IMG/VR virus record: IMGVR_UViG_2585427774_000008
DNA from: a virus
Taxonomy: Duplodnaviria > Heunggongvirae > Uroviricota > Caudoviricetes
DNA: 41,590 nt
Direction: 5' to 3' (one strand)
Position numbers and translations under genes: made by a program. The notes below the pieces were generated by a model. That model saw nothing but the letters and a program-made list of their open reading frames with translations, had not been told where the DNA came from and did not search any database. Below are positions 1,711 to 33,269 of this stretch, in pieces (the stretch's first letter is position 1; the number at the start of each line of letters is the position of its first letter).

Positions 1711-2829
1711 TCAGGCCACGTATTCCGGTTTCATATCCGCCAGGGTGATGCTGAATTGATCGTGCAGTTCATCGCCTAAGTGACGCTTTGAAGATGCAAG
1801 CATGCGCTCGGCTTCAGCGAACCGTTCGGCTGCATGCGGCTCGTCGGGCTGGGGCAGGGATTTAATAGCCTCCTCAACCTTGTTGCGTGCATCCACTAGG
1901 TAATAACGCTTTACGGCTTTGTTTTTCAGCTCGGTGAATAGTGCGGATCCCAGCGTAGCTTTCGCCGTTTCAATGTCGGCACGCAGCGATTTGGCGCTAT
2001 CCACGTCCTGAGCAGATTCGATGCGTTCGCGGAAATCATCGGCAAGAGAGTCGACATTTACCGACGATTCCTGTGCGCTTTGCGTGGTTGTGACGGTGTC
2101 ACCTGAGATATCAGCCAGGCTAACGCGTTGCGGCGTTGGGTTGATCTCTTTTTCTGTGCGCTGTTCAATCTCATCAGGGGTGTACACACCAAGAACAACT
2201 GCAGGGCAATACAGGCGCGCCCAGTATTTGAGTGCCAGATAAGCGATCTGCTGTTTCGGGTTTGATACCCAAAGTGGAGAATTACGTGTGATTACGCTGG
2301 AGAGGAAAACAGGCTCTCCCCAGGTGATATCACTTTCACCGCGAATAACGGCACCTACCCGTACCGACAGTCCTTGTTCATCAGCACTTTCCCAACCGCG
2401 TACCATTTCTTTCTTGTCGTACGTCCCGCCACCTTTCGCAGGCTTTTTAACGGTTATCTCGCGGCTGCTGGCACATTTCGACCAGTCGCCCTCGTACTCA
2501 TAGTGAAAGCGGCCAACGATGGCGTTTGAGCTGGAGATCACCGCATTAACCAGTTGCGCTTCGTATCCCAGGACACCGTTAACCAGGTGCGTCTTTTGCG
2601 CCACGGCGTAAGGGTTCATACCCCACTGCATCGCCTGCATGATGATGGCCATGCAGTCTGCCGGATTGCCGCGGAGGTGCTCAGGCACCGTTACGGCTGC
2701 CTGTGCCATCAACCCGGCGACAGACTGAAGCTGGGTTAAAGCCTGCACGTTGAAAATGGCATTGCTGGCTGAGATCGTGTTTGGAGTCTGCTGTTCAGCG
2801 GTTACGATATTCGTGTTTTCCATCATCAT
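1711..2829 (-). CDS. recT: RecT/Bet-family single-strand annealing protein
   Basis: 372-aa ORF; two segments resemble lambda Bet by recollection (ADCMAIIMQAMQWGMNPY vs AQFIALLIVANQYGLNPW); three tandem ATG codons at start, exact start uncertain. Confidence 0.8.
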   Translation of the reverse strand: MMMENTNIVTAEQQTPNTISASNAIFNVQALTQLQSVAGLMAQAAVTVPEHLRGNPADCMAIIMQAMQWGMNPYAVAQKTHLVNGVLGYEAQLVNAVISSSNAIVGRFHYEYEGDWSKCASSREITVKKPAKGGGTYDKKEMVRGWESADEQGLSVRVGAVIRGESDITWGEPVFLSSVITRNSPLWVSNPKQQIAYLALKYWARLYCPAVVLGVYTPDEIEQRTEKEINPTPQRVSLADISGDTVTTTQSAQESSVNVDSLADDFRERIESAQDVDSAKSLRADIETAKATLGSALFTELKNKAVKRYYLVDARNKVEEAIKSLPQPDEPHAAERFAEAERMLASSKRHLGDELHDQFSITLADMKPEYVA

Positions 2830-2834
2830 TCCCC

Positions 2835-5744
2835 TTATGCATGAGTACGCAGCGCTTCAAGGCGGCGCAGGTCGAAGTCGTTCAGTTCGTCGGTGTAGTC
2901 AGCAGTGATTGGCGCTGGCCATTCACCTGTGTCGAATCCGGTTGCGATATTGCGCATCGCTTTGCGGTACTCGAGCATACCCAGCTCCAGTAGTTCAGCG
3001 GATGCCTCGATGATGGCGATCCAGTGGTAGTTCTCGTCTTTGTTGACGAAAATCCAGAAGAACTGATCCAGCGCTGCGGTTTCGCAGTACATAGCCGCGC
3101 TCAGGTGATAATCACGTTCAATAATTTCCCGGTGTAGCCTGGCGCGCAGGCTTTCCTGCTTAACATTCCACATGCTGATGGTTTTCAGGTCAGCACCGAT
3201 ACGCACGCCGTCTAGGTCGATCTCAAGGTCAGGGCGCACACGAACTTCCAGTCCCGTCTCCTCGTCAAAGCCAAAGTAGCTCACCTCAACGGCGCGGCTC
3301 GGGTGGGTTAGCAGCATGCCTGCGGTCGGGTGCGAGAGCAGTGCTGACTGAATTGCCTGCGCGGTGGCAAGTTGCTGGTGGGTAACCAGCACTTTCCCTT
3401 CCGGGTTGTTGCGCCAAGCATCGAGCAGCTCGTCGGCGAACACTGCATCTGGTTTGACTGCCTTCACGGCCTGAATCAGATCGGCCTTCGTGCCAGAGAC
3501 TTTCAGCGGTTGCAGCTTCTGAGCTTCCTGCGCGACCAGGTCAGGATTGATAATCGCAAGTTGTTCGAGTAGTGCGTCGCGGCTGCCGCTGGTTTTAATC
3601 TGCGCTGGCAGGGTGGCGTTGTACTCTTTGATGCACGCCTTCATTGCTGTTGCTGTCTTCTTCTGATCTGCATCGATACGTTGGAATTCAGCTGGCAGCG
3701 CCATATAGTTCTGCGCCGTTTCATCCAGGCTAGCGCCCAGCGGCACCAGCGCTGGCAGGGTGGCGTTGTATTCATCCAGCAAAGCTTTGATATCGTCTGC
3801 GCTCAGTTGCGCTGGCAGGCTGGCGTTGTACTCATCAATAAACGCGCGGATCGTTGCCGTGGTGGTAAATGCACCTTCCGGAATTACGGGTTCAACGCTA
3901 AATTCTTCATCGAGCTGTTCTGGCTGCAACGCCAGCGCATGTACCAGGTTTCCCATGTCCAGCACTGAGGAGCGCTCTTTGACGATGGTTTTCTCAACGT
4001 GGCGCGCATTGAAGTACATCAGCGAAACGCGCGCATCTTTTACCTGGGTGGAACTGATGCCGTTGGCAGCGTGGTAAACCTCGTTCGGCAGACCTTCATA
4101 GCGCCCAGGCTCGAAGTAATCGGGGTAAAAAACAGCTTGTTCGTCAGATTGCGCCTCTGGCTCGACGTGTGCCAAAACTGGTTCAGTCTGGTTTACAGAA
4201 TCGCTATTTTGAGCGACAGATTCCGTATTTTGGTTTACATCGGCCTGCTGGCCGGGATGTGACTCTTCACCAGTTTCCAGACTGCTTTCGCCTGACTGCA
4301 TTTCATTACCAACATTTTTTTCATCACTGACAGTTTCTTGAACCTGCACATTGCTGGTGGTTTCCGTAGCCTGTTTCGTGCCATGAGTTGCTGAGTTCTG
4401 CAGTAAAGCCGTAACATCGAATATTCCGTTGCCGACATTTTTAACCAGTTCTTGTTCGGCTTTATGTGGTTGTGCTGTCGCTTCCTCTGCGCGGCGGCGT
4501 ACTTCTTCTTCACGTACGCGTTGCAGGTTCTCTTCGTGAGTGCAGAAGGGTTTGCGTGGAGACTCCTTACTTTCAGGTTGGGGAATTTCCTGTGTTGCGG
4601 GCTCAGCTTCATGCAATGGCAATAACTCAACAGCAGCATTAAACGCAGCAGTCATGGTCCGGTTAACAAACTCCAGGTGAGCGACAGGAGTTAGATGAAT
4701 ATTTTCCGGCGCGATACGTATCAGGTTAAAAATAGCTGTGCGGTTAACGCCAAGAACGCCGGGTTGATTGCGCAGAATGCTGCTCCATGATTTCCACGGT
4801 TTTTCTTTTTTGGTCACGATTTCTTTAGCGCGACGAAGAATGCTGCCCGGGATCTCGAAGTGGTTGAAGTTCATAGGCAGAAGGGCACATGCAATCTCTA
4901 AATCGAGAGTGTCAAGGGTATGGTATGTATCAGGTCCACGGTCAGTGACGTAACCGCCGTTGGCATTGGTTCCGGAATCAGTACGCTGAACACTACTGAT
5001 GTGATTACCGGCAGCCCATTCACGCGCCAGGATGCCACGGTCAATGTAATCAGTAGCCGCCCACATTCTGGTGAAACGGAGTACCAGCGCGAGTTCGTGA
5101 CGCTTGTCCTGGCTGAACACTTTGCGAATGGCATCGGTGTAGCGCCACAGGTCTTTGGTGTCGTAACCCTTCACTTCCGGGCAGTTCTCAGCAGCTAACA
5201 GCAAGTTCTGGACGTAACTGTTATCAGTGTCCATCTCCAGCGCGCCGATAGCTTCGTACTCTTCGCGGGTTACGTGGTGGCGCAGTTCGTCGGCGGTGAA
5301 CTGGGAAAGCAGTTGCTTACGAAACGGCATCTGCACTACCGGGTAGAGGGTTGAGTCGTCGTCGTGTTCGTCCAGCGTGATGCCAGCGGTTTCTGGCAGC
5401 GTTGACTCAGTAGTTATGTGACTATCAACGGTCTGAGCCGTTTTCTCGTCAGAGTTTTCAGCTGTGACTTTTGGCAGCCAGGTGCGGTCATCGTTCTGCA
5501 GTTCGTAGCGTTCGCACCAGGTGTAATCCACTGCGCCTTCTTCCGGCAGGTCGTCATATACCGGGAAATCGGTGCGGATTGGTTTGGCATAATCTTTACC
5601 GCGGCCAGTTTCTTCAATTCCGGCTTCTTCCAGTGCCACATCGAGTTGGAGATTGGCGCGCGCTACACTTTTCGCAGTGAACCAAATCACTGCATCTTTC
5701 TTGCCAGACTTCTGACTGGCTTTTATCAGATGGAAAAATTCCAT
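2835..5744 (-). CDS. recE: RecE-like exonuclease VIII (C-terminal nuclease domain)
   Basis: 969 aa from ATG at 5744 with AGAGGA SD (ORF track extends to 5849); large protein immediately upstream of recT as in Rac recET; contains internal tandem repeat. Confidence 0.65.
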   Translation of the reverse strand: MEFFHLIKASQKSGKKDAVIWFTAKSVARANLQLDVALEEAGIEETGRGKDYAKPIRTDFPVYDDLPEEGAVDYTWCERYELQNDDRTWLPKVTAENSDEKTAQTVDSHITTESTLPETAGITLDEHDDDSTLYPVVQMPFRKQLLSQFTADELRHHVTREEYEAIGALEMDTDNSYVQNLLLAAENCPEVKGYDTKDLWRYTDAIRKVFSQDKRHELALVLRFTRMWAATDYIDRGILAREWAAGNHISSVQRTDSGTNANGGYVTDRGPDTYHTLDTLDLEIACALLPMNFNHFEIPGSILRRAKEIVTKKEKPWKSWSSILRNQPGVLGVNRTAIFNLIRIAPENIHLTPVAHLEFVNRTMTAAFNAAVELLPLHEAEPATQEIPQPESKESPRKPFCTHEENLQRVREEEVRRRAEEATAQPHKAEQELVKNVGNGIFDVTALLQNSATHGTKQATETTSNVQVQETVSDEKNVGNEMQSGESSLETGEESHPGQQADVNQNTESVAQNSDSVNQTEPVLAHVEPEAQSDEQAVFYPDYFEPGRYEGLPNEVYHAANGISSTQVKDARVSLMYFNARHVEKTIVKERSSVLDMGNLVHALALQPEQLDEEFSVEPVIPEGAFTTTATIRAFIDEYNASLPAQLSADDIKALLDEYNATLPALVPLGASLDETAQNYMALPAEFQRIDADQKKTATAMKACIKEYNATLPAQIKTSGSRDALLEQLAIINPDLVAQEAQKLQPLKVSGTKADLIQAVKAVKPDAVFADELLDAWRNNPEGKVLVTHQQLATAQAIQSALLSHPTAGMLLTHPSRAVEVSYFGFDEETGLEVRVRPDLEIDLDGVRIGADLKTISMWNVKQESLRARLHREIIERDYHLSAAMYCETAALDQFFWIFVNKDENYHWIAIIEASAELLELGMLEYRKAMRNIATGFDTGEWPAPITADYTDELNDFDLRRLEALRTHA
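3600..3835 (-). repeat. Intragenic tandem repeat, three copies of gctggcagg(g/c)tggcgttgta encoding (D/K)EYNA(S/T)LPA
   Basis: Copies seen at 3605-3624, 3751-3770 and 3811-3830 on the + strand; protein repeats DEYNASLPAQL / DEYNATLPALV / KEYNATLPAQI. Confidence 0.7.
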
Positions 5745-6262: not shown

Positions 6263-6505
6263 GATGTTCTCCAGTTTTTCTGAGTGAACTTCGCTGGTGG
6301 TGCCGCGGCGCTGATCTTCACGGTTGAGCGTTTTAACTCTGCAATTCACCACCGCGAAGCTCACTCTGTGCTTTGCCCTTGTCGCCAGGCTGGCGGAACG
6401 TTTCAAACCTACTGCGCGTTAATCTCACCACCTCATTCCGGTCTTCGTATGCCCCGGACGGCTTCTTCGTGGGCGTCCTGCTTTGGTGGTTGTGTTGATG
6501 GAGTA

Positions 6506-6545
6506 ATTAAACACAATGTTTATTTGCGTGTCAACATAATGAGTG
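6506..6545 (-). promoter_or_regulatory. Candidate PL promoter with OL operators
   Basis: On minus strand, consensus -35 TTGACA (plus 6529-6534), 17-nt spacer, -10 TTTAAT (plus 6506-6511); operator-like palindrome taaacacaatgttta (6508-6522) and half-site tcaacataatg (6531-6545) matching OR sites. Confidence 0.5.
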
Positions 6546-6646
6546 TTTTTATATAAACAAAAAGTTTAGTTGGTTGCGCTCGTTGGCACGAGTAGTATGT
6601 TTTGTGGTCTATTTTGTGGTTATAAAAAAATCGATGAGGGTGAGTT

Positions 6647-6853
6647 ATGGATCGTGACGAACTGGAAGAAGACCGCGCAGCGTTTATTGCGGGGGAGATT
6701 GGTGGCGCAGTTGTCAGTCTGATAGCTAACGGGATTGTGATCAGCCGCGATGCGATTGTGGATAGTCTAGAGGCTAAGCGCAGGGTAGTGGGAAACGTCA
6801 TTCACAAGTGGGTATTGCGGGATGCGGCTGCTATGGTGAGAAAAGGGCAATAA
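6647..6853 (+). CDS. Hypothetical small protein
   Basis: 68-aa ORF with GAGGGTGAG SD; followed by hairpin terminator. Confidence 0.45.
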   Translation: MDRDELEEDRAAFIAGEIGGAVVSLIANGIVISRDAIVDSLEAKRRVVGNVIHKWVLRDAAAMVRKGQ

Positions 6854-6889
6854 AAAACCCAGTTCGGTAACTGGGTTATTGCTTTATTC
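6850..6889. terminator. Bidirectional rho-independent terminator
   Basis: Hairpin aacccagt-tcggta-actgggtt (6856-6877); A-run upstream gives a U-tract on the minus strand, T-rich tract downstream on plus; sits between convergent genes. Confidence 0.55.
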
Positions 6890-7342
6890 AACAGATGATG
6901 GGGGGGTCGGTGCTTTCTTAAAGATCGACCACTGAGAAATGTAGGTCAGCAACCTTGAGCTTAACTCGAGTTCTTTTCGTAATATTTCGTCATAACGTTT
7001 TTTTGCTGCTTGCATGGTCGCATCACTAGCGTGATTGTCATCCATAATGATCTTTAGCCTTTTCTTTTCTCGGCTTGAGCATATTGTAAATAACAGACCT
7101 GTAAATGACATTCCACCAAAATCCTTTAACGTTTTGATTACAAAAAGAAGAATCAAAGACAGAAAAGGAACAGATCTGTAGGCCCAATCACGAAACTCAC
7201 CGTCAGGAAAGAAGATAGGAATAGCATCTGTAGCATAACCACATATGAGGGAGACAATTAGAAAAGGTAGTCCATTTTTAGCTACATTTTTAACGTTATC
7301 GTTAGCCATGATTTTTTCCCGAGAACGATTTCGAGTCAACAT
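6884..7342 (-). CDS. Small membrane protein (possible superinfection exclusion SieB-like)
   Basis: 152-aa ORF (141 aa from second ATG); hydrophobic segments LPFLIVSLICGY and VPFLSLILLFVI; located in immunity region downstream of repressor. Confidence 0.45.
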   Translation of the reverse strand: MLTRNRSREKIMANDNVKNVAKNGLPFLIVSLICGYATDAIPIFFPDGEFRDWAYRSVPFLSLILLFVIKTLKDFGGMSFTGLLFTICSSREKKRLKIIMDDNHASDATMQAAKKRYDEILRKELELSSRLLTYISQWSIFKKAPTPPSSVE

Positions 7343-7685
7343 GTAACTTTTGTGTTTTGACTACATAATACGCAAATCCAATCTTAACTAACCAATAAGC
7401 TACTGGTATGAGTGCTGCGTAAAGAGGGATATAGTACATAACCTTACCTCCTGTTAACCACACTATAACACCTAGCATCACTATTAGCGCGACAGAAAAT
7501 GCTTTCAGCCCAACACAGCTATCAGGATGTGAAACACTGTTCCTTAGCAACAATATCTTGGATTCATCAAGTGTGTAAGGAATATCGCCAACATGATTTT
7601 CGATTTTTGGGAAGGTCTCAAATACTTCAACCCGATCAATCGAAATAATTGAGCTTGATTGATGATCTAAGCAAACTGCAGCCAC
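7302..7685 (-). CDS. Hypothetical protein with C-terminal transmembrane segment
   Basis: 127-aa ORF from GTG located 2 nt after upstream stop; an internal ATG at 7439 has a strong AGGAGG SD and would give a 45-aa membrane peptide. Confidence 0.4.
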   Translation of the reverse strand: MAAVCLDHQSSSIISIDRVEVFETFPKIENHVGDIPYTLDESKILLLRNSVSHPDSCVGLKAFSVALIVMLGVIVWLTGGKVMYYIPLYAALIPVAYWLVKIGFAYYVVKTQKLHVDSKSFSGKNHG

Positions 7686-7687
7686 TG

Positions 7688-8011
7688 TTATCCCTCTCGA
7701 ACCTTTAGTGATACTCGGTTAGCAGCAAATGTGGCAATGAAACCACATTCTACACATATAACAGGGAATGCCCATATACCTCGGCCAGCTGAATGAGGTA
7801 GAGGAAGGGTAATTATTGCAGGATAGTCTTGACTATCTTCTCGTGGAGGAACTCCCCAAAGCGTATGCTTACAAAGCGGACAGGCCATCTCGCCATGTTT
7901 TTCTTCGAGGCGTTGAAAATAATCTCCAAATTCTTGTCTTGATATTGATAGCGTCAATGCTGTTGTATTGACACTTTCCTGACTTTTTTCTTCTTCAACC
8001 TGTTCGCCCAT
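7688..8011 (-). CDS. Zinc-ribbon protein, hypothetical
   Basis: 107 aa from ATG at 8011 (track starts at TTG 8023); CPLCKH and CVECG motifs. Confidence 0.5.
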   Translation of the reverse strand: MGEQVEEEKSQESVNTTALTLSISRQEFGDYFQRLEEKHGEMACPLCKHTLWGVPPREDSQDYPAIITLPLPHSAGRGIWAFPVICVECGFIATFAANRVSLKVREG

Positions 8012-8122
8012 CTCAGCTCTCAATATAATGATAATTAACTGGTAAGTGAATTTTGCATATCGTTAAGATGTATCCCATTGGTACAGAAACATCTGAGGGG
8101 TAAGTAGCTTTTAACTACCGTG

Positions 8123-8518
8123 CTACTCACCATCCCCCTTAATCCGCCGTCCCATGTACTTGGCGTACAGTTCATCGAGTTCTTTCAACCGTAGAGATAC
8201 GATCCGCAACATGTTCTGTTGTTCTTCTTCGTTTGGGAGTTGATTATAGAGTTCCAACAGTCTCCGTTCGTCGTGTCTCAAACCGTCCTTAGCATCCACG
8301 TCCTGACCTAGAACCCACTCAAGACTTACGCCTAGCGCATCGGCAAGTTTTATTGCTGAGCTTTTTCCTATCGCTCCTCTGACAAACCAGTTGTTGACTG
8401 ATTGTGCGCTCACACCACAGATTCTCGCTATATCCGCTTTGGATATGCGCTTCTTCTCGATGATTTCATTTAACCGCCGAACCTGCGGGTTATCTGTTTG
8501 GTGTGTGTTTTTTCTCAT
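8123..8518 (-). CDS. HTH (XRE-family) prophage repressor, RacR/CI-like
   Basis: 131-aa ORF; HTH segment ISKADIARICGVSAQSVNNW; divergent from cro-like gene; no SD before ATG (likely leaderless); no S24 peptidase domain evident. Confidence 0.8.
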   Translation of the reverse strand: MRKNTHQTDNPQVRRLNEIIEKKRISKADIARICGVSAQSVNNWFVRGAIGKSSAIKLADALGVSLEWVLGQDVDAKDGLRHDERRLLELYNQLPNEEEQQNMLRIVSLRLKELDELYAKYMGRRIKGDGE

Positions 8519-8526
8519 ATATCAAG

Positions 8527-8594
8527 ATTCTAAACTAAAAGTTTATCGCCTCAACATTCATAATGTTGACTTTAATATAAACATAATGTTTAAT
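8527..8594. promoter_or_regulatory. OR region: divergent PR/PRM-like promoters with two operator palindromes
   Basis: Perfect palindromes TCAACATTCATAATGTTGA (8551-8569) and TAAACATAATGTTTA (8578-8592); plus strand -35 TTGACT (8566-8571) and -10 TTTAAT (8589-8594); minus strand -35 TTGAGG (plus 8549-8554) and -10 TAGAAT (plus 8527-8532) ending about 7 nt before the repressor ATG. Confidence 0.6.
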
Positions 8595-8621
8595 TTGGTT
8601 CGTTATTACTTGGAGCCAAAT

Positions 8622-8855
8622 ATGAAAGCACTTGATAAAGCAATATGCATCGTAGGGGGTGCAACCCGTTTAGCAGAAAAGCTCAATGTATCCCCAATGA
8701 CGGTCAGTCACTGGCGTCACCGTGACAATGGATTCGTACCGGCTAACCGTGTCATTCCTATTTTCAATGCTACAGGTGTAACTCCACATGAGTTACGCCC
8801 TGATTTGTACCTCAACCCTACGGATGGGTTACCAGCTCAGGAAGCGGGGGCATAA
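8622..8855 (+). CDS. Cro-like HTH regulator, YdaS family
   Basis: 77 aa from ATG at 8622 with GGAG SD (ORF track N-terminal extension rejected); MKALDKAI...GGATRLAEKLNVSPMTVSHW resembles YdaS/Cro-like proteins. Confidence 0.75.
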   Translation: MKALDKAICIVGGATRLAEKLNVSPMTVSHWRHRDNGFVPANRVIPIFNATGVTPHELRPDLYLNPTDGLPAQEAGA

Positions 8856-8857
8856 CC

Positions 8858-9397
8858 ATGCAGTCACTGTCACTTCATCAAAATAGCGGATATCAACCGG
8901 CTGCGATGATAAATCGCAATCAACCTGTCTCGGTAGATAAACATGACCAGATCCGCGATGCCGTTCGTGCGTGGGCGGGTGTAGATGGTCAGGATGTCGT
9001 TTCTGCTCTGATCGTCGAAGAGTACCGGGCGAAGGGTGGTGACGAGATTACTTTCCCTAGCGATCTCAGCCGACAGCGTCAGAAGCTTTTCCGCTTTCTC
9101 GATAACCATTTCAATAGCGAGCGGTACCGCGAGAACGTTCGTCAGTTGACGCCGGCAATTCTTGCTGTTCTGCCGCTCGAGTTCCGCAATCGCCTGCTAC
9201 CAGAAGACAACGTTATGGCCCGTCTGGCTCGGCTGGAGAAAGAAACCAGCGAAGCGAAGATTGCCGTCGCGATGAATGCTCCACGTCATCAGAAGCTGAA
9301 AGAGTTGAGCGAGGGGATCGTGGAGATGTACCGCGTTGACCCTAGCTTAACCGGTCCATTGATGGAGATGGTGCAGATGATGCTGGGGGTTGTATGA
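8858..9397 (+). CDS. YdaT-like regulatory protein (cII-position)
   Basis: 179-aa ORF immediately downstream of YdaS-like gene, same arrangement as Rac ydaS-ydaT. Confidence 0.5.
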   Translation: MQSLSLHQNSGYQPAAMINRNQPVSVDKHDQIRDAVRAWAGVDGQDVVSALIVEEYRAKGGDEITFPSDLSRQRQKLFRFLDNHFNSERYRENVRQLTPAILAVLPLEFRNRLLPEDNVMARLARLEKETSEAKIAVAMNAPRHQKLKELSEGIVEMYRVDPSLTGPLMEMVQMMLGVV

Positions 9398-10390: not shown

Positions 10391-11076
10391 AATCTCTTGC
10401 AGAGCAGATGCGTAACCACGACCGCGAGCAGATGAGCCGCATGGCCCATAACCTGCCAGAGCAGTACCAGGAGTGCGCGCTGGTCGAGCAGGTGGCGCAG
10501 GTATTCAACAAGCTGTTCAACGAGCTGCGCGCCGCGTTCCCGGCCAGCATGGCGAACTTTCGCACCCAGGAAGACCTGAACGAATTCCGCCGTCAGTGGC
10601 TGCTGGCGTTTCAGGAGAACGGGATCCACACCATGGCTCAGGTCGATGCCGGCATGCGCATTGCCCGCCGCCAGGAGCGCCCATTCCTGCCGTCGCCGGG
10701 CCAGTTCGTAGCCTGGTGCAAGCAGAGCGGCGGCGCGCTGGGCGTCAACGTTGACCAGGTGATCGCCGAATACTGGGACTGGCGTAACCGCTCGTTCGAA
10801 TTCATCTCCAGCGAGCAATTTCCATGGTCGCAGCCGGTCATGTACCACATTTGCGTAGAATTGCGCCACCGCAGCACCGAGCGCCAGTTAACGCATGGTG
10901 AACTGGCACGCGAGGCAGGCGATCTGCTGGACATGTGGGAAAGGCGCGTCACCGAGGGTAAGCCAGTGCCGCCGGTACGCCGGGCTATTGCCGCACCAGC
11001 TGCCGAGCAAGGGCCGACGCCGATCCAGCTGCTGCTGGCCAAGTACAACCGCAACAAGTCGAACGGGATGGTGTGA
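10387..11076 (+). CDS. P: Replication protein P (DnaB helicase loader), lambda P-like
   Basis: 229-aa ORF; closely resembles lambda P as recalled (FDREQM...MPEQY...RPFLPSPGQFVAWC). Confidence 0.9.
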   Translation: MKSLAEQMRNHDREQMSRMAHNLPEQYQECALVEQVAQVFNKLFNELRAAFPASMANFRTQEDLNEFRRQWLLAFQENGIHTMAQVDAGMRIARRQERPFLPSPGQFVAWCKQSGGALGVNVDQVIAEYWDWRNRSFEFISSEQFPWSQPVMYHICVELRHRSTERQLTHGELAREAGDLLDMWERRVTEGKPVPPVRRAIAAPAAEQGPTPIQLLLAKYNRNKSNGMV

Positions 11077-11138: not shown

Positions 11139-11318
11139 ATGCCAAACTGGCAGGGCTTCCCGGAGTGGTACATCATCGATCAGGACTATCGGGGGCAGAA
11201 GTACGCGAAGGACAAGCAGGTTGCGCGTTGTGGCAACGCAGTTCCGCCGCCATTCGCCGAGGCACTGGTGAGGGCTAATTTACCGGAGCTTTGTCAGCAG
11301 AAAGAGATCGCAGCTTAA
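11139..11318 (+). pseudogene. C-terminal remnant of a C5-cytosine DNA methyltransferase
   Basis: 59-codon ORF ending ...QGFPEWYII...ARCGNAVPPPFAEALVRANLPELCQQKEIAA; GNAVPP is the motif X signature; no upstream catalytic motifs present. Confidence 0.5.
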
Positions 11319-11906
11319 TGTCCGAGTTTCAGAACATGGTGTAACAAATCCTGCTACTTCAATGACGTAGATTCAAACCTGATATAATTAGGCTCTTCAC
11401 AACACGAGGAGCCTAAAATGCACCATTACATGATCCCTATCAACGGAACTGTTCACCTGATCAAGACTGACTCTCTAATCCCTGAAGGGACTGAGTATAG
11501 CTTTGAAGGAGAAAGTCTAATCTGCGCTCATGCCACTTTTAAATCTGGGACGTATGGCTTCCTGATACCAAAGGGAAATCAGTTGAATAGAGAGCATGCG
11601 TTCTGGCATGTAAGTGGAATTCACCCTAATCCCCTGGGAATGGATAAATCGTAATCCATAATATGCATGCCATCGTCCTGAACATACGGTGGCATGCATC
11701 CGGCACTACAACAGAAACGTTAAAGTGCAAACAATACAATTCGAGCAATATTCAACCTGTCACAGATGGCGAATACCACCGCCATTTCGTGCATTCTGTG
11801 GTTTCTATTACCCATTGCGTTAATGCTGTCCAATCATCAGCTCGCTGAGGCGCTGGTTAGGGCTAACCTACAGGAGCTTTGTCAGCAGAAACAAATAGCG
11901 GCGTAA
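11255..11906 (+). repeat. Diverged direct repeat pair (about 64 bp, about 83 percent identity) flanking an inserted segment
   Basis: 11255-11318 and 11843-11906 both encode AEALVRANL(P/Q)ELCQQK(E/Q)IAA-stop; 11 mismatches counted by eye. Confidence 0.6.
11418..11654 (+). CDS. Hypothetical moron protein
   Basis: 78-aa ORF with AGGAG SD and upstream AT-rich promoter-like sequence (gatataatt); lies between the repeat pair. Confidence 0.4.
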   Translation: MHHYMIPINGTVHLIKTDSLIPEGTEYSFEGESLICAHATFKSGTYGFLIPKGNQLNREHAFWHVSGIHPNPLGMDKS

Positions 11907-11924
11907 TAAAACATCGCTAATTCA

Positions 11925-11952
11925 ACCCGCTACGGCGGGGTTTTTTTTTTTT
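11925..11952 (+). terminator. Rho-independent terminator
   Basis: cccgc-tacg-gcggg hairpin followed by 12 T. Confidence 0.7.
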
Positions 11953-12013
11953 CTACTGACAGAAAATTAACAATTTGTGCTCTTAAAGCGTTGATCATTT
12001 CCGCGCATAGGTA

Positions 12014-12033
12014 TACTGTATAAAAACACAGTA
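12014..12033 (+). promoter_or_regulatory. LexA (SOS) box overlapping promoter of dinI-like gene
   Basis: TACTGTATAAAAACACAGTA matches CTGT-N8-ACAG consensus; overlaps a TATACT -10 candidate about 20 nt upstream of the gene. Confidence 0.7.
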
Positions 12034-12051
12034 AATGCAATGGGGGCCATT

Positions 12052-12285
12052 ATGAAAGTTGAATTAACCATTGATCGCATGAAAGAACTTCCTAAAGGCG
12101 CAGTACCAGCACTGGAGAAAGAACTGCTTAAGCGCCTGAATGATCACTATGACAATTGCAGGCTCACAATCCGCCGTGCCGGGGCCGATGGGTTAAGTGT
12201 TTTTGGTGGTGACAAGGACGATAAAAAGAAAATTGAATCAATCCTCCAGGATACCTGGGAAAGCGCTGACGACTGGTTTTATTAG
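12052..12285 (+). CDS. dinI: DinI-family protein
   Basis: 77 aa from ATG at 12052; MKVELTIDRMKELPKGA...ILQDTWESADDWF closely resembles E. coli DinI as recalled. Confidence 0.85.
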   Translation: MKVELTIDRMKELPKGAVPALEKELLKRLNDHYDNCRLTIRRAGADGLSVFGGDKDDKKKIESILQDTWESADDWFY

Positions 12286-12402
12286 AATTGCGCTTAAGGC
12301 TGGCGCGCATTTTTCAGAATACCGCAATTTGCGTAACCCTCTGATGCTGCTGCCGACAATCTTTAATCGCGTCTGTTAGTCGCTCGAAGGGAGAACATAA
12401 AT

Positions 12403-12651
12403 GTGAGTGATTCAGCTTTGCAAACGTCAGAAGACAACTGGTATGACATTGTAAGAAGGTCTGACGGCTGCGTGGTGTTTAGCTTTCCTTCATCGGGCAG
12501 GCATCTAATTTATCGCGTCAATGGCATGGTTTCTATGCGGCCTTTGCTGGATGATGAAGAGGTCTTTACTCCTAATGGTTTTATGCAGTTTATTCACCGT
12601 CTCGGCTACCGGGTAACCCCACCTTCTGATAATATGAAATCAACGGTCTGA
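12403..12651 (+). CDS. Hypothetical protein
   Basis: 82-aa ORF from GTG with AGGGAG SD. Confidence 0.4.
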   Translation: MSDSALQTSEDNWYDIVRRSDGCVVFSFPSSGRHLIYRVNGMVSMRPLLDDEEVFTPNGFMQFIHRLGYRVTPPSDNMKSTV

Positions 12652-12685
12652 ACAACCGTAACCTACTGCGCCACGGAGAGAAACC

Positions 12686-13285
12686 ATGGCGCACGAACTA
12701 CAACTCATCAAGCATTCCTCAGGAATCCTGATCCCCGCTACGCCGGAGACCAGTGATTTACTGCAATCAAAAATCAAACTCGGCTCCGTACTGGTGGCTG
12801 AGTTCCGGCAGGTACGCAACCCGGCCTTTCACCGTCGTTTCTTCGCGTTACTCAATCTCGGTTTCGAATACTGGGAACCCACCGGCGGGGCAATCTCCTC
12901 CAACGAACGCAAGCTGGTAACCGGCTATGCCAAGTTCCTTGCCTCATTCGCGGGAAGTGAAGCAGCACTCCTGGATGCTGCTGAGCAATATCTGGACCGC
13001 ATCGCCGATAAGCGTACTGGTAGCATCTGCGCCTGTAAGTCATTCGATGCATATCGTGCATGGGTCACTATTGAGTCCGGCCATTACGACGCCATTCAGC
13101 TGCCTGACGGCACCCTCCGCAAACATCCCCGCAGTATCTCATTCGCAAATATGGATGAAACTGAGTTCCAGCAGCTGTACAAAGCCGCGCTCGATGTTCT
13201 GTGGCGATGGATACTCTCCCGATCATTTCGCAGTTGTGAAGAGGCAGAAAACGCCGCCGCCCAGCTGATGAGCTTTGCGGGGTGA
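12686..13285 (+). CDS. Hypothetical nin-region protein
   Basis: 199-aa ORF with AGAGA SD-like sequence; typical position between replication genes and rusA. Confidence 0.55.
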   Translation: MAHELQLIKHSSGILIPATPETSDLLQSKIKLGSVLVAEFRQVRNPAFHRRFFALLNLGFEYWEPTGGAISSNERKLVTGYAKFLASFAGSEAALLDAAEQYLDRIADKRTGSICACKSFDAYRAWVTIESGHYDAIQLPDGTLRKHPRSISFANMDETEFQQLYKAALDVLWRWILSRSFRSCEEAENAAAQLMSFAG

Positions 13286-30596: not shown

Positions 30597-32667
30597 CGCA
30601 GATACGATTAAAGATTTCCTTGTTTCGCTGGGATTCGATATCGATCAGGCTGGCGCTAATAAGTTTGAAGCCGTGCTGAAAGGCGTTACAGCTAACGTTC
30701 TGAAGGTCGGCGCGGTGGTGGAAGGCGCAGCGCTGAGCATTGTCGGATTTACCACTCAGATCGCGAACGGTCTGGATAAAATTTACTGGGCATCCCAGCG
30801 GACGGGGGCCAGTGTCCAGGGCATCAAAGCGCTGGGATACGCCGCATCGCAAACCGGTGCCAGCGCCGAGTCGGCTATGTCCTCCCTCGAAGGGCTGGCC
30901 GGTTTCATGCGTAGCAATCCGGGCGCGGAAGGCTTCCTGAACCGCCTGGGCGTCCAGACTCGCGATGCCAGCGGAAAGATGCGTGATACTGCGGCCATCT
31001 TTACTGGCGTTGGGCAAAAGCTCAACAACATGCCGTATTACCGCGCGAAACAATACGCGCAGATGCTTGGCATCGATGAAAACACGCTGATGGCGATGCG
31101 GCGCGACATGAATGGCTTTACCGCCGATTACCAGTCGATGCTGCAAAAGACAGGGTTCAACGCTGATAAAGCGGCTGTTCAGTCCAACAAATTCATGACG
31201 TCCATGCGCGGGCTTACGTCGCTGTTCGGCATCATGCGGGACAAGATCGGCTCAAACCTCGCTGGTGGCCTGGCTGGTTCGCTGGACAGCCTGCGGCGGC
31301 GCATCCTCGACAATTTCCCGAAGATTGAAGAGACGCTGACCAGAGTTATTAAAGGCGTGATCTGGCTTGCGAACGCATTCACGAGAATGGCGTGGCGGCT
31401 GATACAGGGCGCTGGCTCTGTCATCGACTGGTGGAAGCGTCTTGACGATGGCAGTAAAAATCTGCTGAAAATATTCGGTGCTCTACTGGTCGCATGGCGT
31501 CTGCTTAATTCTGCGTTCCTGAAATCCCCGATTGGAATTATCACCACACTGATTCTGGCGATCGGATTGCTGTACGACGATTACCAGACGTGGAAAGAGG
31601 GCGGTAAAAGCCTGATTGACTGGTCCAAATGGCAGCCAGAAATTGAGCAGGCAAAGAAGGTGTTCAAGTGGCTGCGCGATAAGTTTCTGGAGCTCAAGGA
31701 CAACCTCGGCGGCTGGAAAAATACGCTCACCATCCTGTTTGGCTTTCTGGCTGGTGCGAAGCTGGTCTCCATGCTCACTGGCATCGGGCGACTTGTCGCC
31801 GGATTTATGGGGCTTGGTAAGGCAATTGGCGGCTCTATTGGTGGGCTGGGTAAGCTGGCGCAGGGGATCGCACAGCTGGCAATCAAGAATCCATGGTTGC
31901 TTATGTTCATTCCTGCCAACAATACGCCGACCACCAGTGAAGAAATGGCGTCGATTGGCGGTATAGGCAGCAATATCGTACCTGAAAGGCAGCAGGCATA
32001 TGAGGCGCTGAGAAAGGAAAATCCCGGCAAAGACTTTTTCACTGATGAGCAAATCCAGCGAAAAATTCAGGAGATGGGACTGGAGCCGGAGCAGCGAGCG
32101 CAGTCGGTTAAGCGACCTCAGGCGACGGCCCAGGGCAAGGTATTGCTCGACTGGATGGGGCCAATGTTCAATAAACTGGAGTCGCTTTATCAGCTGCCAG
32201 CTGGCCTGTTGAAAAGCGTGGCGATCACCGAGTCGGGTGGTAACCAGTTCGCCATATCCGGCGCAGGCGCGAAAGGACTGTTTCAGTTTATGGATGGCAC
32301 GGCGCGCGACATGGGCCTGCGTGGGAATGATGTATTCGACCCGGAAAAGTCAGCTCAGGCAGCCGCTAAGTACCTCAGCCAGCTGTTGCGGCAGAACGGC
32401 GGAGACCTTAGCAAAGCACTGGCATCATATAACTGGGGGATCGGGAATGTTAAGCGTTATGGAATGGGGCTAATGCCGCAGGAAACGCGCAACTACATTC
32501 CGAAAGTAATGAGCAATATGCCCACCAGCGCCCCGGTGATTCAGCAGGAAACGAATATTAACATCCACGGCGTTTTCGATCCGCGCGAGGCTGCCCGTTT
32601 GACTGTTGACCGTCAAAAGGGCGTGAATTCACAGTTAACCCAGCAACTCCCCGCAGGACCGAGATAA
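30586..32667 (+). CDS. Tail tape measure protein with C-terminal lytic transglycosylase (SLT) domain
   Basis: 693-aa ORF; central hydrophobic/Gly-rich segments; C-terminal SLT motifs ITESGGNQFAISGAGAKGLFQFM...YNWG. Confidence 0.8.
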   Translation: MSGNADTIKDFLVSLGFDIDQAGANKFEAVLKGVTANVLKVGAVVEGAALSIVGFTTQIANGLDKIYWASQRTGASVQGIKALGYAASQTGASAESAMSSLEGLAGFMRSNPGAEGFLNRLGVQTRDASGKMRDTAAIFTGVGQKLNNMPYYRAKQYAQMLGIDENTLMAMRRDMNGFTADYQSMLQKTGFNADKAAVQSNKFMTSMRGLTSLFGIMRDKIGSNLAGGLAGSLDSLRRRILDNFPKIEETLTRVIKGVIWLANAFTRMAWRLIQGAGSVIDWWKRLDDGSKNLLKIFGALLVAWRLLNSAFLKSPIGIITTLILAIGLLYDDYQTWKEGGKSLIDWSKWQPEIEQAKKVFKWLRDKFLELKDNLGGWKNTLTILFGFLAGAKLVSMLTGIGRLVAGFMGLGKAIGGSIGGLGKLAQGIAQLAIKNPWLLMFIPANNTPTTSEEMASIGGIGSNIVPERQQAYEALRKENPGKDFFTDEQIQRKIQEMGLEPEQRAQSVKRPQATAQGKVLLDWMGPMFNKLESLYQLPAGLLKSVAITESGGNQFAISGAGAKGLFQFMDGTARDMGLRGNDVFDPEKSAQAAAKYLSQLLRQNGGDLSKALASYNWGIGNVKRYGMGLMPQETRNYIPKVMSNMPTSAPVIQQETNINIHGVFDPREAARLTVDRQKGVNSQLTQQLPAGPR

Positions 32668-33269
32668 TGGATATTTTATCAGCGATTTTTCGCCAGCAAT
32701 CCCGGCGAATTGGAATATTAATCCCCAGCGTGGTTGTTTCTGAAAAGCATTCTGATGCGCTAGAAATTACTGAGCACCCGGTGGAGAAGCCAACAACGAA
32801 TAGCGCGTCGGGTTTCATCGCCGATCATGCGTATAAGCGCCCCAGCGAAGTCACGATGGAATGCGGCTTCGCAGGTGGCGGTTCGTTGCTGGACTTCATT
32901 GATACATCGTCAATCGGCCTCAGCGCCGGACTTAGCCCGAAAGAGACCTATCAGCAACTACTGGATCTCCAGTCCTCTCGGGTGCCGTTCGATGTAGTGA
33001 CCGGAAAGCGGGTTTACAGCAATATGCTGGTGCGAGCCATCGAGGTGACAACGGATAAAACCAGCGAGAACGTGCTGAACTGCACGCTTACCCTGCGTGA
33101 AGTGATCATGTCGCAGACGCAGAGCGTTAGCGTTGCAGATAAATCAGATATGCAGGATGGCGTCAGCACATCGGCGGTGCAAAATTCCGGGACGAAATCC
33201 ACTACACAGCCAAACGAATCCTTGCTGAGCCAGCTTGGCGGAAGCGTTACATCAGCATTCGGGGGATGA
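32667..33269 (+). CDS. Hypothetical tail/baseplate protein
   Basis: 200-aa ORF, TAATG overlap with tape measure. Confidence 0.5.
   Translation: MDILSAIFRQQSRRIGILIPSVVVSEKHSDALEITEHPVEKPTTNSASGFIADHAYKRPSEVTMECGFAGGGSLLDFIDTSSIGLSAGLSPKETYQQLLDLQSSRVPFDVVTGKRVYSNMLVRAIEVTTDKTSENVLNCTLTLREVIMSQTQSVSVADKSDMQDGVSTSAVQNSGTKSTTQPNESLLSQLGGSVTSAFGG

What the first reader, a model, noticed from the sequence alone, without database searches (positions are those of the whole stretch)
8527..8594. Complete immunity switch readable from sequence: two perfect operator palindromes with divergent promoters and a leaderless repressor
TCAACATTCATAATGTTGA (8551-8569) and TAAACATAATGTTTA (8578-8592) share an AACAT-N-ATGTT core and overlap a plus-strand TTGACT-17-TTTAAT promoter for the cro-like gene and a minus-strand TTGAGG-16-TAGAAT promoter that ends about 7 nt before the repressor ATG, so the repressor mRNA is probably leaderless like lambda cI from PRM. 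The repressor has no obvious S24 autopeptidase domain, so induction may need an antirepressor or another route.
Basis: seen in the sequence. Interest (0 to 1): 0.5.

Follow-up and report, generated by a model that had tools for sequence, protein, structure and literature searches.

The report
Gifsy-1-type prophage immunity switch
This is the on/off control region of a dormant virus in an enterobacterial genome. It belongs to a known class (Salmonella Gifsy-1 type) whose repressor is switched off by a small DNA-damage-induced antirepressor rather than by self-cleavage, so it is largely ordinary.

Summary
The operator model is wrong in detail and incomplete.

- **Operator.** The repeated element is the 15-mer TAAAC-N5-GTTTA. 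It occurs exactly four times in 41.6 kb: 8531-8545 and 8578-8592 (OR), and 6508-6522 and 6554-6568 (OL).
- **Middle sites.** Each pair flanks a conserved weaker site, 8555-8569 in OR and 6531-6545 in OL.
The 19-bp palindrome is the middle site plus two back-to-back -35 elements, and its symmetry is not maintained in relatives.
- **Promoters.** PR (TTGACT-17-TTTAAT) has a mirror image at PL (TTGACA-17-TTTAAT). PRM's -10 lies 8 nt from the repressor ATG here, and 6-8 nt in 128 of 131 related loci. The repressor mRNA is therefore probably leaderless or has a 2-nt leader.
- **Identity.** The repressor is 75% identical to Gifsy-1 GfoR, with an identical DNA-reading region.
- **Induction module.** The window carries the matching Gifsy module at 11926-13285: terminator, LexA box, dinI, GfoA-like antirepressor and irsA.

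Verdict: a new member of a known kind, of modest interest.

The parts
6506..6534 (-). PL-like promoter: -35 TTGACA (6534..6529), 17 nt, -10 TTTAAT (6511..6506). It would drive the leftward kil / ydaE / recE operon.
   Evidence: Read. It mirrors PR exactly: the same -10 is fused to an operator arm. The 43-nt inverted repeat 6505-6547 / 8553-8595 is 79% complementary. TTGAC and GTTTAAT are kept in 40 OL representatives (GTTTAAT was part of that search pattern).
6508..6522 (.). OL operator proximal to PL (OL1-like), TAAACACAATGTTTA
   Evidence: Exact TAAAC-N5-GTTTA. PWM score 23.2 bits. Exact site kept in all 20 loci scanned.
6531..6545 (.). OL middle site (OL2-like); reverse complement CACTCATTATGTTGA. 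Overlaps the PL -35.
   Evidence: Centre is 23 bp from each outer site. PWM rank 33 of 41576. Consensus ActCAtt.tGTTGAC in 40 OL representatives.
6554..6568 (.). OL distal operator (OL3-like), TAAACAAAAAGTTTA
   Evidence: Exact match; 23.9 bits. Present in most OL representatives even though it was not part of the search pattern.
6884..8023 (-). Three cargo ORFs (152, 127 and 111 aa) downstream of the repressor, in the position of lambda rexAB
   Evidence: ORFs. No Pfam or PADLOC family. This slot holds different genes in relatives.
8123..8518 (-). Repressor, 131 aa: N-terminal five-helix HTH plus a two-helix C-terminal extension. GfoR ortholog.
   Evidence: HTH_3 2.9e-8 and no S24 hit. 75% identical to Gifsy-1 GfoR, with residues 33-47 and 49-72 identical. 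GfoR identity is anchored by published primers. AlphaFold2 pLDDT 85.7, all-alpha. P22 c2 N-terminal domain aligns at rmsd 2.2 A.
8527..8554 (-). PRM-like maintenance promoter: -35 TTGAGG (8554..8549), 16 nt, -10 TAGAAT (8532..8527). The repressor ATG is 8 nt downstream.
   Evidence: 9/12. The -10 and the CAA of the -35 are kept in relatives. ATG lies 6-8 nt from the -10 in 128 of 131 loci.
8531..8545 (.). OR operator inside the PRM spacer and -10 (OR3-like), TAAACTAAAAGTTTA.
   Evidence: Exact match; 23.0 bits; arms invariant in 7 diverged ORs.
8555..8569 (.). OR middle site (OR2-like), CATTCATAATGTTGA.
   Evidence: Centre is 24 and 23 bp from the outer sites. PWM rank 31 of 41576. TC and GTTGAC are invariant. 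Centre is at -42 from the predicted PRM start.
8566..8594 (+). PR-like promoter: -35 TTGACT (8566-8571), 17 nt, -10 TTTAAT (8589-8594)
   Evidence: Not reported by the scan, which requires A at position 2 of the -10. TTGAC and TGTTTAAT are invariant in 7 diverged ORs.
8578..8592 (.). OR operator over the PR spacer and -10 (OR1-like), TAAACATAATGTTTA
   Evidence: Exact match. Best PWM score in the window, 25.1 bits.
8622..8855 (+). Cro-like gene (YdaS family, 77 aa); SD GGAG at 8612-8615
   Evidence: PF15943, 58.1 bits against a cutoff of 30. phrog_35. 74% identical to the Gifsy-1 counterpart.
8858..9397 (+). CII-like gene (YdaT family, 179 aa)
   Evidence: PF06254, 90.9 bits against a cutoff of 21. 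phrog_163, CII-like activator.
11926..11952 (+). Intrinsic terminator ahead of the SOS operon
   Evidence: CCCGC-TACG-GCGGG followed by a T run. Same position as described for Gifsy prophages (PMC3121763).
12014..12033 (.). LexA box TACTGTATAAAAACACAGTA, overlapping a TATACT -10-like hexamer
   Evidence: The only CTGT-N8-ACAG in the window; sequence. The matching Gifsy-1 sequence appears in primer pp752.
12052..12285 (+). dinI homolog
   Evidence: NF007893 at 3.7e-26, below its equivalog cutoff. The Gifsy dinI C-terminal primer matches 36/40 at 12243.
12403..12651 (+). GfoA/GfhA-type small antirepressor, 82 aa, GTG start
   Evidence: 93% identical to the 82-aa ORF of Salmonella locus L014. The published gfoA primers match that ORF 38/40 and 23/24, and match the window 35/40 and 21/24 at the ORF ends. 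Co-occurs with GfoR-like repressors in phage records.
12686..13285 (+). irsA homolog (DUF1367)
   Evidence: The irsA primer matches 34/40 at 12679. Counterparts are called DUF1367.

Best explanation
The interval is the right operator (OR) of a Gifsy-1-type lambdoid prophage. It is not the whole switch.

**Repression (inferred).** A 131-aa non-cleavable repressor, an ortholog of Salmonella GfoR, binds as a dimer to 15-bp sites TAAAC-N5-GTTTA.

**OR layout (shown in sequence).**
- Site 8578-8592 covers the spacer and -10 of the rightward promoter PR.
- The weaker site 8555-8569 covers the PR -35 and abuts the -35 of the leftward repressor promoter PRM.
- Site 8531-8545 lies in the PRM spacer and -10, so high repressor levels would shut off repressor synthesis.

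**OL (shown in sequence).** A mirror-image triple at 6508-6568 controls PL, 2 kb away.

**Repressor mRNA (inferred).** PRM starts transcription at or 2 nt before the repressor ATG, so the mRNA is leaderless or nearly so.

**Lysis-lysogeny partners (by family).** Cro (YdaS family) and CII (YdaT family) play the usual opposing and establishing roles.

**Induction (inferred from Gifsy experiments).** Induction does not involve repressor cleavage. DNA damage removes LexA from the box at 12014-12033. The dinI / gfoA-like / irsA operon is then expressed. The 82-aa antirepressor binds the repressor, probably its conserved C-terminal helices, and releases it from DNA.

**Shown versus inferred.** The sequence anatomy, its conservation, and orthology to GfoR and GfoA are shown. 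Which protein binds which site, cooperativity, OL-OR looping, autoactivation, transcription start sites and antirepression in this phage are inferred.
For: **Operator family.**
- Four exact TAAAC-N5-GTTTA sites exist, only at OL and OR; 0 of 100 shuffles reach 4.
- A PWM trained on other loci scores them 23-25 bits. The next best position in the window scores 11.5.
- The middle sites rank 31 and 33 of 41576 and lie exactly in the central register.

**Conservation.**
- Of 20 loci scanned, 18 have two exact sites at OR (47 bp apart) and two at OL (46 bp apart). The two Cronobacter loci have one exact OL site. Fifteen of the 20 were found by protein similarity (74-99% repressor identity) and five E. 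coli loci by DNA similarity.
- The spacers between sites vary.
- An IMG/VR scan with the OR pattern gave 131 usable matches. In 127 of them the adjacent repressor carries the QSVNNWF helix.
- Heteroimmune relatives use altered sites in a similar layout: paired sites at OR and OL in SEN34 and L008 (TAAGC-N5-GCTTA), and in mEp237 a pair at OR plus a single exact distal site (GTAAA-N7-TTTAC).

**Promoters.**
- PL mirrors PR.
- The PRM -10 lies 6-8 nt from the ATG in 128 of 131 loci.
- For the related GfhR, Lemire et al. placed a promoter within the 84 nt just upstream of the short ORF's AUG.

**Identity.**
- The gfoR primers match L014 and L022 100%.
- The window repressor is 75% identical to that protein, and identical across residues 33-47 and 49-72.
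- The antirepressor ortholog is 93% identical.
- A terminator, LexA box, dinI and irsA are all in place.

**No S24.**

**C-terminal region.** It is 81-85% identical to heteroimmune GfhR-type repressors, against 52-55% for the HTH. This fits the published cross-reactivity of GfoA and GfhA.
Against: - No binding, footprint or transcription-start data exist for this phage or, in the literature I could search, for GfoR operators.
- The proposed -10 of PR and PL, TTTAAT, lacks the usually critical A at position 2, so the scan tool rejected it.
- The middle sites are weak matches, about 1 bit against 23. They also overlap -35 hexamers, so their conservation could be promoter-driven rather than operator-driven.
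- The conserved TCA in their left half does not resemble the TAAAC arm.
- In the window, 8 nt separate the -10 from the ATG, so a strictly leaderless start is less likely than a 2-nt leader.
- The IMG/VR set was selected by the DNA pattern, so arm invariance in that set is circular. The 15 loci found through the repressor protein were not selected by the DNA motif, though related loci also share these sites by common descent.
Confidence: 0.8

Rival explanations
1. One reading: two operators defined by an AACAT-N-ATGTT core (8551-8569 and 8578-8592) form the complete switch.
For: Both palindromes are perfect and share the pentamers. They overlap the -35 and -10 of PR.
Against: The pentamers are 5 nt apart in one and 1 nt apart in the other, so one dimer geometry cannot fit both. 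The AACAT and ATGTT columns vary in relatives while the TAAAC and GTTTA arms are invariant. A third exact site at 8531-8545 and three at OL are ignored.
Confidence: 0.07
2. The 19-bp palindrome 8551-8569 is a separate binding site for another dimeric protein, for example the YdaS-type Cro or the YdaT-type CII, and is distinct from the repressor operators.
For: It is perfect in the window. At consensus level 7 of 8 arm pairs are complementary across 86 distinct ORs. It is specific to OR, where Cro would need to shut off PRM.
Against: Among 17 representatives below 90% identity, arm matches range from 4 to 8 of 8, and one-sided changes (ATGTT to AAGTT) are not compensated. The outer TCAA and TTGA are the two divergent -35 elements. 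Relatives with 74% identical Cro proteins carry imperfect versions. CP-933P YdaT binds TTGATT-N6-AATCAA between ydaS and ydaT, not in OR.
Confidence: 0.08
3. Each region has only two true operators, the exact 15-mers 46-47 bp apart, bridged by a repressor tetramer. The middle 'sites' are just -35 hexamers.
For: The middle sites score about 1 bit against 23-25. GTTGAC is the -35 of PR and PL. The repressor's long C-terminal helix (97-127) could support higher oligomers.
Against: Bases outside the -35 (A.TCA, positions 2-6 of the 15-mer) are conserved at both OL and OR across 17 and 40 representatives. Both middle sites fall in the exact register, 23-24 bp from their neighbours.
Confidence: 0.2

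Closest known systems
Gifsy-1 (S. Typhimurium ATCC14028) GfoR repressor with the LexA-controlled GfoA antirepressor (Lemire, Figueroa-Bossi and Bossi 2011, PMC3121763)
   Same: The repressor is 75% identical, the same length, and has an identical HTH region. OR and OL carry the same TAAAC-N5-GTTTA sites. The order terminator, LexA box, dinI, small non-ATG-start antirepressor (93% identical), irsA is the same. The left operon is likewise RecE/RecT-based.
   Different: The host is different: E. coli, Citrobacter and Klebsiella relatives. The cargo behind the repressor is different, three unknown ORFs instead of parA. The CII gene is YdaT-type here, while the Gifsy-1 counterpart gives only a weak Pfam Phage_CII hit. 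Here 8 nt rather than 6 nt separate the PRM -10 from the ATG. The N and C termini of the repressor diverge.
Phage lambda cI / OR-OL switch
   Same: Three operators per region with centres 23-24 bp apart. Divergent PR and PRM. The middle site abuts the PRM -35 and is centred about -42. A mirror OL lies about 2 kb away. Accessory genes sit behind the repressor gene. The repressor start codon is at the transcript 5' end. (The lambda facts are from my own knowledge.)
   Different: There is no S24 autocleavage or oligomerisation domain. Sites are 15 bp, not 17 bp. Cro and CII belong to the YdaS and YdaT families. Induction is by an antirepressor. Cooperativity, looping and autoactivation are unproven here.
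Rac RacR-YdaS-YdaT, CP-933P PaaR2-YdaS-YdaT and Qin DicA-Rem modules of E. coli
   Same: A short HTH repressor lies divergent from ydaS and ydaT. DicA is listed as a GfoR/GtgR relative and is relieved by the small antirepressor Rem. The window repressor gives a weak DicA-family hit, NF007257 at 1.6e-6 and below cutoff.
   Different: The repressors are only distantly related. They have different operators, and the YdaT recognition sequence is not transferable (one search is at chance level). Rem is not known to be LexA-controlled.
SinR / SinI of Bacillus subtilis (architecture only)
   Same: An HTH domain followed by a short helical C-terminal region that is the target of a small protein antagonist. 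SinR appears among the fold matches (1b0n and 3qq6).
   Different: No detectable sequence relationship (one search found no PDB sequence match). It is not a phage switch. The resemblance is an analogy, not membership.

Membership tests
Gifsy-type repressor/antirepressor induction system (GfoR/GfoA class) | Short (about 130-150 aa) repressor homologous to GfoR that lacks a cleavage domain | tested here: met
   131 aa. 75% identical to the protein whose gene ends match the published gfoR primers 41/41 and 21/21. No S24 hit. All-helical model.
Gifsy-type repressor/antirepressor induction system (GfoR/GfoA class) | LexA box next to a dinI homolog downstream of the replication genes and preceded by a terminator | tested here: met
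   Terminator at 11926-11952. TACTGTATAAAAACACAGTA at 12014-12033. dinI at 12052-12285. The box lies 0.94 kb after the P gene end at 11076.
Gifsy-type repressor/antirepressor induction system (GfoR/GfoA class) | Small ORF with a non-canonical start codon between dinI and irsA, homologous to GfoA | tested here: met
   GTG-start 82-aa ORF at 12403-12651. 93% identical to the Salmonella ORF matched by the gfoA primers. irsA-like gene at 12686.
Gifsy-type repressor/antirepressor induction system (GfoR/GfoA class) | The repressor is not cleaved on induction; the antirepressor binds it and releases it from DNA | not testable with these tools
   Shown experimentally only for the Gifsy proteins (PMC3121763).
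Lambda-type tripartite OR/OL genetic switch | Three repressor sites in OR overlapping divergent PR and PRM | tested here: inconclusive
   There are two exact sites plus one conserved weak site in register. Binding was not measured.
Lambda-type tripartite OR/OL genetic switch | A second operator cluster (OL) over PL, about 2 kb away | tested here: met
   6508-6568, with PL as TTGACA-17-TTTAAT. Kept in relatives at 0.6-2.6 kb.
Lambda-type tripartite OR/OL genetic switch | Leaderless repressor mRNA from PRM | not testable with these tools
   The geometry fits: the -10 lies 8 nt from the ATG here and 6-8 nt in 128 of 131 loci, and there is no room for an SD. There are no transcription-start data.
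LexA / CI S24 autopeptidase repressors | C-terminal Peptidase_S24 domain with a Ser-Lys dyad and an Ala-Gly cleavage site | tested here: not met
   No PF00717 hit at E<=0.01. Only 131 aa. Residues 82-127 form two helices. Fold matches cover HTH domains only.
YdaS (Cro-like) / YdaT (CII-like) families | Pfam family match above the gathering score, in the cro and cII positions | tested here: met
   PF15943 at 58.1 bits against 30. PF06254 at 90.9 bits against 21.

The most novel reading that the evidence does not exclude
GfoR-class repressors have only a two-helix C-terminal extension of about 50 aa, where lambda CI has a large C-terminal domain. They may nevertheless run a full lambda-style six-operator cooperative switch (OR1-3 and OL1-3, a leaderless autoregulated PRM, possibly OL-OR looping). 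The DNA-reading and antirepressor-sensing halves appear to evolve as separate modules. As a corollary, heteroimmune phages such as mEp237 carry an extra 'orphan' GfoR-like repressor (gp38) with no cognate operator in their own genome. This orphan may act as a cross-immunity gene against phages of this window's immunity type.
Probability: 0.3. Interest if true: 0.5.

Novelty: new member of a known kind. Interest (0 to 1): 0.3.

Why it matters
The practical gain is a concrete, testable operator map (TAAAC-N5-GTTTA, three sites at OR and three at OL) for the GfoR immunity group. This group is widespread: the Gifsy-1 allele alone is indexed in over 11,000 blocks of the sequence collection, and more than 120 viral contigs carry the OR pattern. 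I found no operator sequences or transcription start sites for this group in the searchable literature. The map predicts that this prophage is homoimmune with Gifsy-1 of ATCC14028. It also predicts that the prophage responds to GfoA and GfhA made by co-resident prophages, which bears on prophage cross-talk and induction by DNA-damaging antibiotics. None of this changes how such switches are understood.

Tried and rejected
Rejected on register, on conservation and on PWM rank.
- **The 19-bp palindrome as a selected symmetric site.** Rejected: there is no compensatory change among 17 representatives and it is absent at OL.
- **Alternative -10 hexamers for PR** (TAATTT with a 19-nt spacer; an extended -10 TGnTTAATT). 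Neither is better conserved than TTTAAT, read.
- **A PRM-like rightward promoter mirrored at OL.** The mirrored positions read TTTTTA and AGTTGG, which is not a promoter.
- **CP-933P YdaT site TTGATT-N6-AATCAA.** Three hits at 1-2 mismatches, at chance level.
- **PDB sequence search with the repressor.** No hit.
- **Rfam on the whole window.** Nothing.
- **PADLOC and Pfam on the cargo ORFs.** Nothing above threshold.
- **Global excess of perfect inverted repeats.** None: 21 observed against 16.7 expected.
- **Literature on leaderless gfoR or on GfoR operators.** Nothing found.

Full report
**1. The observation**

- TCAACATTCATAATGTTGA lies at 8551-8569, with 8-bp arms around CAT.
- TAAACATAATGTTTA lies at 8578-8592.
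- A + strand TTGACT-17-TTTAAT spans 8566-8594.
- A - strand TTGAGG-16-TAGAAT spans 8554..8527.
- The 131-aa ORF at 8123-8518 (-) has its ATG 8 nt after the -10.

The ORF is an HTH_3 / Phage_CI_repr protein with no Peptidase_S24 match. Its AlphaFold2 model (pLDDT 85.7) is five HTH helices plus two C-terminal helices at 82-92 and 97-127. The HTH superposes on the P22 c2 N-terminal domain at 2.2 A.

By themselves the two palindromes are only mildly unusual. The probability is about 0.03 for two in a 103-nt, 26% GC spacer. The shared pentamers occur twice against 0.24 expected.

**2. What repeats is a different element**

The repeat finder returned a four-member family, TAAAC-N5-GTTTA, at 6508, 6554, 8531 and 8578. 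These are the only matches in 41.6 kb even with one mismatch allowed, and 0 of 100 shuffles reach four.

The pairs are 47 bp (OR) and 46 bp (OL) apart. Midway in each pair is a related but weaker 15-mer: CATTCATAATGTTGA at 8555-8569, and the reverse complement CACTCATTATGTTGA at 6531-6545. The site centres are therefore 24 and 23 bp apart in OR and 23 and 23 bp apart in OL. This is the spacing I recall for lambda's operators.

I trained a PWM only on sites from other loci. It scores the four exact sites at 23-25 bits, and the next best position in the window at 11.5 bits. The two middle sites rank 31 and 33 of 41576 positions.

**3. Promoters**

PR (TTGACT-17-TTTAAT) has an exact mirror at OL on the minus strand: TTGACA (6534..6529), 17 nt, TTTAAT (6511..6506). 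In both, the -10 is the last four bases of an operator arm plus AT.

The scan tool did not report either promoter because it requires A at position 2 of the -10. This is a real weakness. No alternative hexamer is better conserved.

PRM's -10 overlaps site 8531-8545, and its -35 abuts the middle site. If transcription starts at the usual seventh base after the -10 (8520), the middle site is centred at -42. The mRNA would then begin AUAUG, a 2-nt leader.

**4. Relatives**

Twenty loci scanned for the motif carry repressors 74-99% identical to this one. Fifteen were found through the protein and five E. coli loci through DNA similarity. They come from a Klebsiella phage, Citrobacter, Raoultella, Cronobacter, Enterobacter, Salmonella and E. 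coli.
- 18 of the 20 have two exact sites at OR and two at OL with the same spacing. The two Cronobacter loci have one exact OL site. The OL-OR distance ranges from 0.6 to 2.6 kb.
- In seven diverged ORs the invariant columns are precisely the TAAAC and GTTTA arms, CAA (PRM -35), TC and GTTGAC (middle site and PR -35), TGTTTAAT and the cro GGAG. The spacers between them vary freely.
- Of 131 usable matches, 128 have an ORF starting 10-12 nt from the first site, which is 6-8 nt from the -10. Of these, 127 carry the recognition helix QSVNNWF.

Among 17 OR representatives below 90% identity the arms match at 4-8 of 8 positions, and one-sided changes are not compensated. At OL, where there is no divergent promoter, the left arm is absent. 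Its outer TCAA and TTGA are the two back-to-back -35 elements.

Heteroimmune relatives keep a similar layout with altered sites.
- SEN34 and a C. werkmanii prophage use TAAGC-N5-GCTTA, paired at both OR and OL.
- mEp237 uses GTAAA-N7-TTTAC, with a pair at OR and a single exact site about 2.9 kb away.

**5. Identity and induction route**

Table S1 of Lemire et al. 2011 (PMC3121763) lists recombineering primers.
- The gfoR start and C-terminal primers match Salmonella loci L014 and L022 at 21/21 and 41/41, at the ends of the 131-aa gene. That protein is therefore GfoR of Gifsy-1 (ATCC14028).
- The window repressor is 75% identical to it. Residues 33-47 and 49-72, which include the HTH, are identical.
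- Gifsy-1's own OR and OL carry TAAAC-N5-GTTTA sites.

The same paper shows three things. Gifsy repressors are not cleaved. They are inactivated by small antirepressors. Those antirepressors are encoded in a LexA-controlled dinI / antirepressor / irsA operon that lies downstream of the replication genes and behind a terminator.

The window has exactly this arrangement.
- A terminator at 11926-11952.
- The only CTGT-N8-ACAG in the window, TACTGTATAAAAACACAGTA, at 12014-12033.
- dinI at 12052-12285.
- A GTG-start 82-aa ORF at 12403-12651. It is 93% identical to the Salmonella ORF hit by the gfoA primers.
- An irsA-like gene at 12686-13285.

Phage records that carry a homolog of the repressor largely also carry a homolog of the 82-aa protein.

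The repressor's C-terminal region (79-127) is 81-85% identical to heteroimmune GfhR-type repressors, while the HTH is only 52-55% identical. This fits the published finding that GfoA and GfhA each inactivate both GfoR and GfhR. It also suggests, by inference, that the C-terminal helices are the antirepressor target.

**6. Mechanism, with status**

Shown:
- the sequence anatomy;
- its conservation;
- orthology to GfoR and GfoA;
- absence of an S24 domain.

Inferred:
- repressor dimers occupy the three OR and three OL sites;
- occupancy blocks PR and PL;
- occupancy of 8531-8545 limits PRM;
- the repressor mRNA is leaderless or has a 2-nt leader;
- Cro (YdaS family) and CII (YdaT family) act as in lambda and CP-933P;
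- SOS-induced antirepressor releases the repressor.

For the related GfhR, the published Figure S1 legend places a promoter within the 84 nt just before the short ORF's AUG. This is indirect support for the PRM geometry.

Not resolved:
- whether the middle sites are bound;
- whether there is cooperativity, looping or autoactivation;
- whether TTTAAT really serves as the -10.

**7. Verdict**

The operator definition is wrong, the site count is incomplete, and the switch is not contained in 8527-8594.

The system is a new member of the known Gifsy-1 GfoR/GfoA class. Its operator map appears not to be in the literature I could search, which is a modest addition. Interest is 0.3.

Noticed in passing
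L024 (phage mEp237, NC_019704.1) 32154-33033; L003 (SEN34) 2590-3402: These heteroimmune phages carry two tandem repressor paralogs. The one next to cro (mEp237 gp39, GfhR-like) has its own operators, GTAAA-N7-TTTAC. The second (gp38) keeps the GfoR recognition helix, but the whole 44-kb genome has no TAAAC-N5-GTTTA site even at 1 mismatch. Relative to the window repressor, gp38 has the more similar HTH (82%) and the less similar C-terminal region (69%); gp39 is the reverse, 55% and 81%. gp38 may be an orphan repressor that gives cross-immunity against GfoR-type phages.
   Followed up: partly
window 6884-8023 (-), and the same slot in L001, L009-L011, L014, L018 and L020: The slot between the repressor gene and OL is a variable cargo site. 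The window holds three unknown ORFs, two membrane-like and one with CxxC pairs. Relatives hold HicAB plus YoaK, a SIR2-domain protein, ParA, an ASCH protein or an IS1 insertion. Pfam and PADLOC find nothing above threshold for the window's ORFs.
   Followed up: partly
window 6647-6853 (+) and 6856-6877: A conserved 68-aa ORF (phrog_3975, function unknown) sits just right of OL on the + strand, convergent with the repressor operon. It ends at a bidirectional terminator-like hairpin. No promoter for it was found.
   Followed up: no
window 11254-11319 and 11842-11907: A 66-nt direct repeat (83% identical) is two copies of the 3' end of an ORF ending ...ALVRANL.ELCQQK.IAA. The copies flank a 78-aa ORF at 11418-11654. 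This looks like a gene inserted into, or a duplication of, the end of a gene that I guess encodes a DNA methyltransferase.
   Followed up: no
window 8906-8923: ATGATAAATCGCAATCAA lies 16 codons into the ydaT-like gene. It matches the CP-933P YdaT site TTGATT-N6-AATCAA at 16 of 18 positions. The number of such matches in the window is at chance level, and YdaT recognition helices vary.
   Followed up: partly
window 6400-8900 compared with complete E. coli genomes: This exact immunity region (at least 99.5% identity over at least 94% of the query) is present in only 5 of 5426 complete E. coli genomes. Another 69 share parts of it, typically the OL and repressor-OR flanks with a different middle. 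The closest protein matches are in Citrobacter species at 98-99%. In one E. coli the prophage sits next to kch, the site region noted for phi80 and mEp237.
   Followed up: no
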